Part shown: piece after piece, positions 23,735-24,262 of the stretch | Layout of the letters: every line of letters begins with the position of its first letter | Numbering within the stretch: the stretch's first letter is position 1 | DNA from: a virus | Virus record (IMG/VR): IMGVR_UViG_3300005832_000021 | Coordinates: 1-30,519 of that record | Length of the DNA: 30,519 bases | Reading direction: 5' to 3' (one strand) | Notes under the pieces: generated by a model | Databases searched by the model: none | The model's input: the letters and a program-made list of their open reading frames with translations, nothing else | Told to the model about the DNA's origin: nothing | Made by a program: the position numbers and the translations under genes

Positions 23735-24262
23735 TTATCTCCGCTCACTTGGCATAATGAATTGCAAACCAAGAAAATCGAAAAAGTTGCGTTCTTCTGG
23801 CATCAAAATCATTTCACCGCCCCACCAAACAGCTCCGTTTTTTACATGGCAATCCGATGGGAGTAAACCGCCCTTTCTCCTGGGTGTCGCGATTTTCTTA
23901 CTAAACTCTGCCGGGCCAGTTCGTATCATGTAAATAACGCCCCATTGTGCAGGCGGTAGCACCATGAATAAATCTAGCATGATCCCCTCATACAATCTGA
24001 TCTTCTTGTATCGTTCCCCGCCTACAAAGACAGACCACTCTCCGCACCTATTGTTGAGATACTCGAGCAATAGATTGTGTGGGATTGTGGCATCTCCAAA
24101 TAAATCGTTTTCGTATTCGATTCTAGGTATCGCAACAATCTCGATATCCTTGACTTCTGGCTTTCTCCTGCGGATACTTCCGGCTATTTTTATACGTTCA
24201 CAGTATGGGCTGAATTCGCCCGTTAGTTTCTCTGCAATACATCTCGCTTTTTCTATCTTCAC
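23735..24262 (-). CDS. Minimal Pol X-family (DNA polymerase beta-like) nucleotidyltransferase, 175 aa
   Basis: GTG start 6 nt after AGGAGG. The NTase motif hG[GS]x9-13Dh[DE]h is present as AGSIRRRKPEVKDIEIV, and the third acidic residue is in MLDLFMV. TGPAEF and the C-terminal FFDFLGLQFIMPSERR parallel the thumb/C-terminal region of Pol X enzymes. Size and layout resemble the 174-aa ASFV Pol X. Confidence 0.65.
   Translation of the reverse strand: MKIEKARCIAEKLTGEFSPYCERIKIAGSIRRRKPEVKDIEIVAIPRIEYENDLFGDATIPHNLLLEYLNNRCGEWSVFVGGERYKKIRLYEGIMLDLFMVLPPAQWGVIYMIRTGPAEFSKKIATPRRKGGLLPSDCHVKNGAVWWGGEMILMPEERNFFDFLGLQFIMPSERR

What the first reader, a model, noticed from the sequence alone, without database searches (positions are those of the whole stretch)
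23735..24262. Minimal Pol X-like polymerase in a small siphovirus that encodes no other polymerase
The 175-aa protein has the NTase signature (GS-x10-DIE, then LDLF) and a Pol X-type thumb/C-terminal region (TGPAEF..., FFDFLGLQFIMPSERR). It lacks the 8-kDa and fingers domains, like the 174-aa ASFV Pol X, the smallest polymerase I know of. The second catalytic acid is Glu rather than Asp (DIE versus DxD). In a phage with RecT, RusA and HNH but no replicative polymerase, it could fill gaps in recombination intermediates, repair nicks, or perform template-independent addition. It might also serve a counter-defence role. I do not know of a described function for such an enzyme in bacteriophages.
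Basis: partly seen in the sequence, partly recalled or inferred. Interest (0 to 1): 0.7.

Follow-up and report, generated by a model that had tools for sequence, protein, structure and literature searches.

The report
Minimal family-X DNA polymerase in phages
This small phage carries a 175-residue, stripped-down relative of the DNA-repair polymerases beta and lambda; it belongs to a large, unstudied family found in uncultivated phages and prophages, and it most likely patches short gaps in phage DNA rather than copying the genome.

Summary
Window 23735..24262, on the minus strand, is a 175-aa gene with a GTG start and an AGGAGG ribosome-binding site. It has GS-x9-DIE (not x10), LDLF and RTGP motifs.

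A profile of 64 homologues matches only family-X polymerases in the PDB, over palm plus thumb: Pol lambda 3e-11, Thermus PolX 8e-10, Pol beta 1e-4. The AlphaFold model (pLDDT 96) gives only PolX enzymes in the Foldseek top 50, including the 174-aa ASFV PolX. There is no 8-kDa, fingers or PHP domain.

The family is large, with 1,447 clusters at 50% identity at E<=1e-30. It is stand-alone and its nucleotide-binding and metal-binding residues are near-invariant, so DIE is a family signature and not decay.

It occurs in 269 IMG/VR contigs and 346 bacterial-genome loci. It sits next to replication-initiator and helicase-loader genes, with no conserved partner. tblastn with this protein and with two other family members gave only two weak matches in 50,697 GenBank phages. 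Pfam (above threshold), PHROGs, NCBIfam and PADLOC have no family for it, and I found no paper on it.

The window encodes no other polymerase. Activity and role are inferred; short-gap filling is the best guess. It lacks the conserved template-sensing Arg (Pol beta R283). I class it as a new variant of a known kind.

The parts
23735..24262 (-). Gene for the 175-aa minimal family-X (Pol beta-like) polymerase. Palm is about residues 1-105 (24262..23948). Thumb/C-terminal subdomain is about residues 106-175 (23947..23738). Stop codon at 23737..23735.
   Evidence: ORF; JGI gene call; family profile vs PDB; AF2 model pLDDT 96.4; Foldseek top 50 all PolX.
24268..24273 (-). AGGAGG Shine-Dalgarno, 5 nt upstream of the GTG start.
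   Evidence: Sequence read directly.
24140..24181 (-). GSIRRRKPEVKDIE: the triphosphate-binding GSxRR motif plus the first two metal-binding acids, D39 and E41.
   Evidence: Translation. Aligns to Pol lambda G416-S417..D427-x-D429 and to ASFV G38-S39..D49-x-D51. Family conservation: G 99%, S 98%, R31 98%, R32 99%, D39 100%, E41 95% (D in 4%).
23966..23977 (-). LDLF: the third metal-binding acid, D97 (= Pol lambda D490, ASFV D100).
   Evidence: Translation; alignments; D 94% / E 5% in the family.
23900..23923 (-). RTGPAEFS: the counterpart of the PolX nucleotide-binding motif YFTGSDIFN (Pol beta) / YLTGSKAHS (Thermus). R114 replaces Pol beta F272, and S121 matches Thermus S266.
   Evidence: Translation; alignments; R114 98%, T115 100%, G116 100%, S121 90%; motif definitions from PMC9226535.
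24264..24315 (.). Upstream copy of a 52-nt direct repeat that abuts the gene start. On the minus strand it reads ..LLAALAFVLAGLLDRRTR, then a stop that overlaps the GTG start, and it contains the SD.
   Evidence: the repeat finder, 51/52 identical; 0 expected by chance; sequence.
23616..23667 (.). Downstream copy of the 52-nt direct repeat. It is the 3' end of a 51-aa hydrophobic ORF and carries the SD of the next gene. Together the two copies bracket the polymerase gene as a 648-nt unit.
   Evidence: 51-aa gene call in L165.
22725..23150 (-). RusA-like Holliday-junction resolvase, three small genes downstream (context).
   Evidence: PHROG 140, E 1.8e-23; Pfam RusA on the JGI call.
25746..26525 (-). 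DnaD-like helicase loader / replication-initiation protein (context: the phage recruits the host replisome).
   Evidence: PHROG 10469 and 3926.
28771..29625 (-). RecT single-strand annealing protein (context).
   Evidence: PHROG 148, E 7e-40; Pfam RecT 84.7 bits.
26896..27189 (-). HNH-like endonuclease (context).
   Evidence: PHROG 2340, E 3e-9; CxxC..HH..N..CxxCH..H pattern in the translation; no Pfam hit.

Best explanation
The gene encodes a stand-alone, catalytically active, minimal family-X DNA polymerase made only of the Pol beta-type palm and the C-terminal nucleotide-selecting subdomain.

Proposed mechanism:
- GSxRR (G28, S29, R31, R32) holds the triphosphate of an incoming nucleotide.
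- D39, E41 and D97 hold the two metal ions.
- The RTGP..S helix closes over the nascent base pair.
- One or a few nucleotides are added distributively to a 3'-OH at a short gap or recessed end.

The phage replicates with the host replisome, recruited by its DnaD-like initiator/loader. The enzyme is therefore an accessory repair and maturation function, comparable to the nin-region genes of lambdoid phages. It would fill the small gaps left by RecT annealing, RusA-resolved junctions or base or nick damage, so that host ligase can seal them before packaging.

What is shown: fold, family, architecture, conservation of the active site, phage context, absence of another polymerase. What is inferred: activity, DNA as substrate, template dependence, gap filling, and the biological role.
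For: Identity:
- The profile of 64 homologues matches Pol lambda (3e-11), Thermus PolX (8e-10), Pol beta (1e-4) and Pol mu across palm plus thumb. All 60 matches listed are PolX enzymes.
- The AF2 model has pLDDT 96.4 and pTM 0.90.
- The Foldseek PDB top 50 are all PolX. TMq is 0.76 to Thermus PolX, about 0.7 to Pol lambda, and 0.64-0.67 in both directions to ASFV PolX.
- The BFVD top hits are giant-virus PolX proteins.

The active site is under selection across 261 family members. D39 is 100%, E41 95% plus D 4%, and D97 94% plus E 5%. G28, S29, R31 and R32 are 98-99%, T115 and G116 100%, R114 98%, E157 99% and R174 99%. [quoted passage not shown]

A palm-plus-thumb PolX can work. ASFV PolX is a gap-filling repair polymerase (PMC5330486). 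A palm+thumb-only truncation of Faustovirus PolX retains synthesis activity, though as an engineered double mutant in template-independent synthesis (PMC13252658).

There is no TdT/Pol mu-type Loop1. Only 4-5 residues separate strand 85-89 from the D97 strand. From established knowledge of TdT and Pol mu, this favours template dependence.

Context:
- The gene lies in the window between the replication initiator and RusA, in the same operon direction, with a strong SD.
- In 80 viral loci the recurrent neighbours are DnaD-like, O-like and DnaC-like initiators and loaders, RusA, methylases and excisionase.
- Bacterial-genome and metagenome loci show the same phage early-region content.
- No PolA or PolB signature motif was found in 2.4 Mb of flanks, apart from one motif-A-like hit. 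No polymerase was found in the window.
Against: - No biochemical data exist for any member.
[quoted passage not shown] The position of the Pol beta steric-gate Tyr is Ile or Leu, and Pol beta F272 is Arg. Template handling, fidelity and sugar choice may therefore differ from known PolXs.
- The 8-kDa 5'-phosphate-binding domain is missing, and the residues of the ASFV 5'-P pocket are not conserved. How a gap would be recognised is unknown.
- No ligase, AP endonuclease or other repair partner was found in the window or as a conserved neighbour.
- The window's RecT and RusA are not conserved companions of the family.
- The query itself is below Pfam's threshold for the thumb model (21.1 against 25 bits).
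Confidence: 0.55

Rival explanations
1. Template-independent terminal transferase. The enzyme would add untemplated nucleotides to 3' ends of phage or host DNA, for example to tail or protect ends or to create microhomology for end joining.
For: The template-sensing Arg (Pol beta R283 equivalent) is missing family-wide. A palm+thumb-only Faustovirus PolX construct carries out template-independent synthesis after engineering (PMC13252658). Several PolXs bind dNTP without DNA and can synthesise without a template (PMC9226535).
Against: There is no Loop1-like insertion, which substitutes for the template in TdT and Pol mu; the corresponding loop is 4-5 residues. Wild-type Faustovirus PolX was nearly inactive in this mode. 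The closest structural matches are template-dependent gap fillers.
Confidence: 0.15
2. A nucleotidyltransferase that has kept the PolX fold but acts on a non-DNA or non-templated substrate in a counter-defence role, such as RNA or tRNA 3'-end repair, or consuming or modifying a signalling nucleotide.
For: Phage early regions are rich in anti-defence genes. The gene is a stand-alone accessory cassette with no conserved partner and is bracketed by 52-nt repeats. Three residues that contact the base pair or sugar in known PolXs are replaced in a family-specific, conserved way: I/L113, R114 and V125.
Against: No PADLOC hit. No match to CCA-adding, MNT, KNT, cGAS or poly(A) polymerase folds among the top 50 PDB matches. 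The complete PolX thumb, with TG, Ser and the C-terminal E..D..P..R features, is conserved. Recurrent neighbours are DNA-replication genes.
Confidence: 0.1
3. An error-prone 'strategic mutagenesis' polymerase, as proposed for ASFV PolX. It would fill gaps but mainly diversify the phage genome or allow mutagenic repair of breaks made by restriction or CRISPR.
For: There is no proofreading domain. The fidelity-determining Arg is absent. ASFV PolX is described as highly error-prone and involved in strategic mutagenesis (PMC5330486).
Against: The ASFV features that cause dG:dGTP misincorporation (His115-Arg127 platform, V120, L123) are not conserved. There is no Ku or LigD in the window. Nothing in the data bears on mutation rates.
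Confidence: 0.1
4. A catalytically dead PolX remnant that serves only as a DNA-binding or structural protein, like the noncanonical bacterial PolXs whose polymerase site has decayed.
For: The second catalytic residue is Glu, not Asp. Noncanonical PolXs without polymerase activity exist (PMC9226535).
Against: The inactive PolXs carry non-acidic substitutions, deletions and unconserved dNTP-site residues. Here all three positions are acidic in about 100% of 261 members, and GSxRR and TG are 98-100% conserved. There is also no second domain such as PHP that could explain retention.
Confidence: 0.03

Closest known systems
African swine fever virus DNA polymerase X (pO174L, 174 aa; PDB 5HRF, 5HRI and others)
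   Same: Same size and same two-subdomain architecture: palm plus C-terminal subdomain, with no 8-kDa or HhH domain. Same GS-x9-DxD/E spacing, the same LDLF third-acid motif and the same TGP motif. It is virus-encoded in a genome that uses another enzyme for bulk replication. Foldseek TM is 0.64-0.67 normalised either way.
   Different: Only about 15-25% identity; hhalign gives E 4.6e-4 and probability 33%. The ASFV-specific 5'-P pocket (R125, T166, R168, L174) and the His115-Arg127 platform are not conserved: the phage has I113 and A/V125. The triad is D-E-D against D-D-D, and Arg replaces F116. No AP endonuclease or ligase partners were found. The host virus is a tailed phage, not a nucleocytoplasmic large DNA virus. 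This is probably an independent reduction.
Polymerase core of bacterial PolX (PolX1; Thermus thermophilus 3AU2/3B0X, Bacillus subtilis YshC)
   Same: Best structural match (TMq 0.76, E 3e-9) and a strong profile match (8e-10). It shares the V-PP-x-x-[WY]-G segment before the TG motif and a Ser at the Pol beta N279 position (S121 = Thermus S266).
   Different: Bacterial PolX1 is about 570 aa with 8-kDa, fingers and PHP exonuclease/AP-endonuclease domains, all absent here. PolX1 has Lys at the Pol beta D276 position, which is Ala here.
Human DNA polymerase lambda / beta catalytic palm+thumb
   Same: Best sequence-profile match: Pol lambda at 3e-11 over the palm and thumb. All catalytic and triphosphate-binding residues align. 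These enzymes are short-gap-filling repair polymerases.
   Different: They have 8-kDa dRP-lyase and fingers domains (plus BRCT in lambda). They keep Y505/F506, N513 and R517 (Pol beta Y271/F272, N279, R283), which are I/L, R, S and V/A in the phage family.
PolX2 group of Timinskas et al. 2026 (NAR, PMC12926913)
   Same: Prokaryotic or viral PolX homologues that lack the N-terminal 8-kDa and PHP domains yet keep a conserved polymerase site. They are uncharacterised experimentally.
   Different: [quoted passage not shown] This protein ends at the PolX C-terminal PxxR. That survey discarded 'fragments shorter than 200 residues', which would probably have excluded a 175-aa protein.
s149FvPolX, engineered palm+thumb truncation of Faustovirus PolX (PMC13252658)
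   Same: Shows that a palm+thumb-only PolX can catalyse DNA synthesis.
   Different: It is an artificial truncation carrying activating mutations and was assayed for template-independent synthesis. It is not a natural minimal enzyme.

Membership tests
Family X DNA polymerases (Pol beta-like polymerase core) | Pol beta-type nucleotidyltransferase palm with three metal-binding acidic residues on adjacent strands | tested here: met
   D39, E41 and D97 align to Pol lambda D427/D429/D490 and ASFV D49/D51/D100. They are acidic in about 100% of 261 members. The second residue is Glu, not Asp, which is within the 'aspartate or rarely glutamate' canonical definition of PMC9226535.
Family X DNA polymerases (Pol beta-like polymerase core) | GSxRR triphosphate-binding motif, 9 residues before the first acid | tested here: met
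   G28-S29-I-R31-R32, x9 spacing; 98-99% conserved; motif definition.
Family X DNA polymerases (Pol beta-like polymerase core) | C-terminal (thumb) subdomain with the Y-F/L-T-G-S...N/S nucleotide-binding motif | tested here: inconclusive
   The subdomain is present, with T115 and G116 invariant and S121 equal to Thermus S266. However, the first two positions are I/L and R instead of Y/H and F/L. Pfam DNA_pol_B_thumb scores 21.1 bits against a cut-off of 25 for this protein; other members score 25.8-30.0.
Family X DNA polymerases (Pol beta-like polymerase core) | [quoted passage not shown] | tested here: not met
   A125 in this protein and Val in 95% of the family.
Family X DNA polymerases (Pol beta-like polymerase core) | 8-kDa dRP-lyase/5'-P domain and HhH fingers subdomain | tested here: not met
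   The protein starts at the first palm helix (Pol lambda chain position 150 of a 335-residue core). These domains are also absent in ASFV PolX, so they are not required for membership.
Family X DNA polymerases (Pol beta-like polymerase core) | Overall fold closest to solved PolX structures rather than to other NTases | tested here: met
   The top 50 of 328 significant PDB matches are all PolX enzymes. All 60 listed sequence-profile hits are PolX.
Family X DNA polymerases (Pol beta-like polymerase core) | Template-directed DNA polymerase activity | not testable with these tools
   Needs purified protein.
ASFV PolX-type minimal PolX | About 175 aa, palm plus C-terminal subdomain only | tested here: met
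   175 aa; TMq/TMt 0.64-0.67 to 5HRF, 5HRI and 5HRG.
ASFV PolX-type minimal PolX | 5'-P binding pocket (R125, T166, R168, L174) and His115-Arg127 platform | tested here: not met
   The aligned residues are K123 (W/R/K in the family), no match for 166/168, I113 and A/V125.
ASFV PolX-type minimal PolX | Closest sequence relative is ASFV PolX (same clade) | tested here: not met
   Pol lambda and bacterial PolX score 41-46 bits. ASFV PolX is not among the 60 matches listed, the weakest of which scores 21.9 bits. hhalign probability is 33%.
Bacterial PolX1 | C-terminal PHP exonuclease/AP-endonuclease domain | tested here: not met
   The protein ends at residue 175 with the thumb PxxR.
PolX2 (PMC12926913) | Extra alpha-helical C-terminal domain after the polymerase core | tested here: not met
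   No residues follow the thumb. Longer family members show only palm and thumb Pfam hits.
Non-polymerase minimal NTases (MNT antitoxin, aminoglycoside/kanamycin NTase, CD-NTase) | NTase core without a PolX thumb; matches to those families | tested here: not met
   None among Pfam, NCBIfam or PADLOC hits, nor in the top 50 structural matches.

The most novel reading that the evidence does not exclude
Tailed phages carry a very large, overlooked family of natural polymerases about as small as ASFV PolX, with a rewired active site: a D-E-D triad, Arg and Phe swapped relative to Pol beta R258/F272, and no template-sensing Arg. These enzymes may not be ordinary gap fillers. They could be low-fidelity or untemplated 3'-end extenders that phages use to heal or mutate DNA ends cut by host defences, giving escape from restriction or CRISPR.
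Probability: 0.12. Interest if true: 0.8.

Novelty: new variant of a known kind. Interest (0 to 1): 0.55.

Why it matters
- Viral family-X polymerases are described in the literature only for ASFV and giant viruses. A 2022 review of phage DNA polymerases lists none for phages. A 2026 census of bacterial polymerases discarded fragments shorter than 200 residues.
- This finding shows a family of thousands of 160-200-aa PolX enzymes in uncultivated temperate phages of Chloroflexota, Bacteroidota and many other phyla.
- It gives a natural set of minimal polymerases for studying what the palm+thumb core can do alone. It is also a possible source of very small enzymes for enzymatic DNA synthesis.
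- It raises a concrete biological question: why do phages that borrow the host replisome carry their own repair-type polymerase?
- The conserved departures from the PolX consensus (E41, R114, V125) are directly testable by mutagenesis.

Tried and rejected
- PHROGs, NCBIfam and PADLOC gave no family for the protein. Pfam gave only a sub-threshold thumb hit.
- tblastn of this protein and of two other family members against 50,697 GenBank phages gave nothing, or only two weak matches in jumbo phages annotated as hypothetical. Megablast of the early region also gave nothing.
- The search for a conserved partner gene failed in three ways. BLAST clustering of ORFs from 80 genome loci found none, the commonest neighbour family being in 7 of 70 loci. 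Pfam on 124 nearest neighbours found none, the top family AAA_25 being in 5. PHROGs on 150 neighbours in viral loci found only a diffuse replication-initiator theme.
- Iterated HMM searches seeded with the window's RusA, RecT, HNH and small neighbours found them in few or no other loci. My crude ORF caller limits this test.
- Longer family members were checked for informative fusions and showed only PolX palm and thumb.
- An exact 40-nt scan of IMG/VR for the flanking repeat gave no match.
- Assignment to MNT, KNT or other minimal NTases was considered and rejected on fold and profile evidence.
- A decayed, inactive PolX was considered and rejected on conservation.
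Full report
**1. The observation**

Window 23735..24262 holds a 175-aa ORF on the minus strand with a GTG start. An AGGAGG Shine-Dalgarno lies 5 nt upstream, at 24273..24268. JGI's gene caller produced the same 175-aa product on a near-identical contig.

- GSIRRRKPEVKDIE at 24140..24181
- LDLF at 23966..23977
- RTGPAEFS at 23900..23923
- the C-terminal FFDFLGLQFIMPSERR

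The only correction is that the spacing is GS-x9-DIE, not x10. That is the spacing seen in Pol lambda and ASFV PolX.

The window carries a 120-bp terminal direct repeat, so it looks like a complete, circularly assembled 30.4-kb genome. Its G+C content is 51.9%.

**2. What the protein is**

Single-sequence searches are weak:
- Pfam gives only DNA_pol_B_thumb at 21.1 bits, below the cut-off of 25.
- phmmer against the PDB gives Thermus PolX at E 0.018.
- PHROGs, NCBIfam and PADLOC give nothing.

The protein does have a very large family. There are 1,362 clusters at 90% identity in the word-indexed search, nearly all 160-205 aa. A full HMMER scan of 1.84 billion representatives at 50% identity gives 1,447 hits at E<=1e-30, 4,800 at E<=1e-10 and 8,272 at E<=1e-3.

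A profile of 64 members (A1) matches 104 PDB sequences. All 60 listed are family-X polymerases, matched over the whole palm and thumb: Pol lambda 3.2e-11, Thermus PolX 8.4e-10, Pol beta 1.4e-4, Pol mu 5e-4.

The AlphaFold2 model is very confident, with pLDDT 96.4 and pTM 0.90. All of its top 50 Foldseek matches in the PDB are PolX enzymes:
- Thermus PolX, TMq 0.76
- Pol lambda, about 0.7
- Pol beta and Pol mu
- the 174-aa ASFV PolX, TM 0.64-0.67 normalised either way

In the viral structure library the best matches are giant-virus PolX proteins, including a 174-aa Harvfovirus protein.

The alignment begins at the first palm helix and ends at the PolX C-terminal P-x-x-R. There is therefore no 8-kDa domain, no HhH fingers and no PHP domain.

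**3. Is the active site alive?**

In an alignment of 261 family members:

| Element | Conservation |
|---|---|
| Triphosphate-binding G28 / S29 / R31 / R32 | 99 / 98 / 98 / 99% |
| D39 | 100% |
| E41 | 95% (Asp in 4%) |
| D97 | 94% (Glu in 5%) |
| T115, G116 | 100% |
| R114 | 98% |
| S121 | 90% |
| E157 | 99% |
| P171 | 98% |
| R174 | 99% |

DIE is therefore a conserved family signature, not a lesion.

[quoted passage not shown] The inactive ones carry non-acidic substitutions, deletions and unconserved dNTP-site residues (PMC9226535). This family fits the first description.

S121 sits at the Pol beta N279 position and matches S266 of Thermus PolX.

Three conserved departures from the PolX consensus stand out:
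- The Pol beta Y271 (steric gate) position is Ile or Leu.
- The F272 position is Arg (R114), while the Pol beta R258 position is Phe (F99, as in ASFV F102). This is an apparent Arg/Phe swap next to the D-to-E change.
- The template minor-groove Arg is Ala here and Val in 95% of the family. [quoted passage not shown]

The loop that forms the template-mimicking Loop1 in TdT and Pol mu is only 4-5 residues. From established knowledge of those enzymes, this argues for template dependence. The missing Arg argues for unusual template handling or low fidelity.

**4. Relation to ASFV PolX**

The resemblance is architectural. It does so only at E 4.6e-4 and probability 33%.

The ASFV-specific 5'-P pocket (R125, T166, R168, L174) and the His115-Arg127 platform are not conserved. 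Profile and structure scores are higher to Pol lambda and bacterial PolX. The segment V-PP-x-x-[WY]-G before the TG motif is shared with Thermus PolX. An independent reduction from a bacterial-type PolX core is the more likely history. I did not build a tree.

**5. Context in the window**

All genes run on the minus strand. Read in the direction of transcription, the early region is:

| Coordinates | Gene |
|---|---|
| 28771..29625 | RecT |
| 26896..27189 | HNH-like endonuclease |
| 25746..26525 | DnaD-like helicase loader / replication initiator |
| 25175..25375 | GerE/LuxR-type HTH |
| (four small ORFs) | unknown |
| 23735..24262 | the PolX gene |
| (three small ORFs) | unknown |
| 22725..23150 | RusA |
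| 20292..21542 | endolysin |
| 18551..19954 | terminase large subunit |
| 13653..15767 | portal / MuF-like |
| 11554..12891 | capsid |

No ORF matched a polymerase, primase or helicase family. The phage must therefore use the host replisome. Tail genes could not be typed, so 'siphovirus' is unproven for this genome. A relative does carry Sipho_Gp37.

**6. Context elsewhere**

- IMG/VR holds 269 contigs with a relative, mostly 30-60 kb.
- One genome per GTDB species gives 346 loci. The closest, at 50-53% identity, are in cultured Anaerolineae (Bellilinea caldifistulae and Anaerolinea thermolimosa, two copies each). This suggests a Chloroflexota host. Others are in Bacteroidota, Ignavibacteriota, Kiritimatiellota, Planctomycetota, Acidobacteriota and more.
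- Annotated examples show integrases, Phage_rep_org_N, DnaB_2, AAA loaders, FtsK-like ATPases, methylases, terminase and portal.
- No partner gene is conserved. BLAST clustering of neighbours finds none, and neither does Pfam on 124 nearest neighbours.
- PHROGs on 150 neighbours in viral loci shows a recurrent theme of replication initiators and helicase loaders (DnaD-like, O-like, DnaC-like), plus RusA, methylases and excisionase.
- Signature motifs of family A and B polymerases are absent from 2.4 Mb of flanking DNA, except for one motif-A-like hit (a crude test).
- Longer family members have no added domains.

The gene is thus a stand-alone accessory gene of temperate-type phages that recruit host replication.

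**7. How it most likely works**

The shown parts are the fold, the family, the intact and conserved two-metal and triphosphate sites, the phage early-region location, and the lack of any other polymerase. From these I infer a distributive, proofreading-free, template-directed DNA polymerase that adds one to a few nucleotides at gaps or recessed 3' ends.

Its position between the replication initiator and RusA resembles the accessory recombination and repair ('nin'-type) region of lambdoid phages. A reasonable role is to fill gaps left by RecT annealing, junction resolution or base or nick damage, so that concatemers are intact for packaging.

My confidence by level:

| Claim | Confidence |
|---|---|
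| PolX-family enzyme | about 0.95 |
| Active nucleotidyltransferase | about 0.85 |
| DNA gap-filling activity | about 0.6 |
| The specific biological role | about 0.4 |

Rivals are template-independent tailing, a non-DNA or counter-defence substrate, a mutagenic role, and an inactive remnant. They are listed with their tests in the rival explanations.

**8. Comparison with the literature**

- A 2022 review of phage-encoded DNA polymerases lists only ASFV under viral family X (PMC8775771).
- A 2024 structural survey mentions ASFV and giant viruses only (PMC11646218).
- The 2026 census of bacterial polymerases found PolX1 and a new PolX2. [quoted passage not shown] That study discarded fragments under 200 residues (PMC12926913), so it would probably have missed this family.
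- My other searches found nothing on phage PolX.
- JGI's pipeline already labels some members 'DNA polymerase/3'-5' exonuclease PolX' or 'family 10'. The homology is therefore machine-recognised but unstudied.
- Three tblastn searches of 50,697 GenBank phage records, with this protein and two other family members, gave only two weak matches. Both are in jumbo phages and are annotated hypothetical or left unannotated.

**9. Verdict**

I rate it a new variant of a known kind: a natural minimal PolX lineage of tailed phages with its own active-site signature. Interest is moderate, 0.55. It is a clean, large, unstudied enzyme family with a clear experimental path, but its fold and general chemistry are familiar.

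Noticed in passing
window 23616-23667 and 24264-24315: A 52-nt direct repeat (51/52 identical, none expected by chance) brackets the polymerase gene as a 648-nt unit. Each copy encodes ..LLAALAFVLAGLL[D/E]RRT plus an AGGAGGA ribosome-binding site. The downstream copy is the 3' end of a 51-aa hydrophobic ORF. The upstream copy has no usable start codon and its stop overlaps the polymerase GTG. It looks like a cassette insertion or duplication junction, and recombination between the copies would delete exactly this gene.
   Followed up: partly
window 1-120 and 30400-30519: The first and last 120 bases are identical, so the window is probably a complete, circularly assembled or terminally redundant phage genome of about 30.4 kb.
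   Followed up: partly
window 9403..10935 (minus strand): A 510-aa protein inside the structural module has a C-terminal SAM-dependent methyltransferase domain (Pfam Methyltransf_23, 28.9 bits). This is an unusual place for a methyltransferase.
   Followed up: no
window 16219..17637 (minus strand): A 472-aa protein with two Laminin_G_3 (concanavalin-like lectin) stretches lies between the terminase and portal genes rather than among tail genes.
   Followed up: no
window 20292..21542 and 21989..22414 (minus strand): The endolysin, and a 141-aa protein with a weak match to a transmembrane effector model (PycTM, E 5e-4; possibly a holin), lie between the early region and the terminase rather than at the end of the late operon.
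   Followed up: no
window 25375..25749 and 24813..25028 (minus strand): Two small early proteins carry paired CxxC motifs, so they are zinc-ribbon-like. The first has a sub-threshold DnaJ CXXCXGXG hit. Neither matched any family.
   Followed up: no
L166 and L168 (metagenome contigs carrying family members): These relatives carry an actin-like ParM-type segregation gene (ALP_N) together with tyrosine recombinases. One also has DpdA and a 1,064-aa protein with a DnaG zinc ribbon. This suggests that some carriers are plasmid-like prophages.
   Followed up: no
L002/L003 (Anaerolinea thermolimosa) and L001/L009 (Bellilinea caldifistulae): Each of these cultured Anaerolineae genomes holds two separate copies of the minimal PolX gene, at 50-53% identity to the window protein. 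This points to Chloroflexota as the likely host group and offers cultivable systems for genetics.
   Followed up: no
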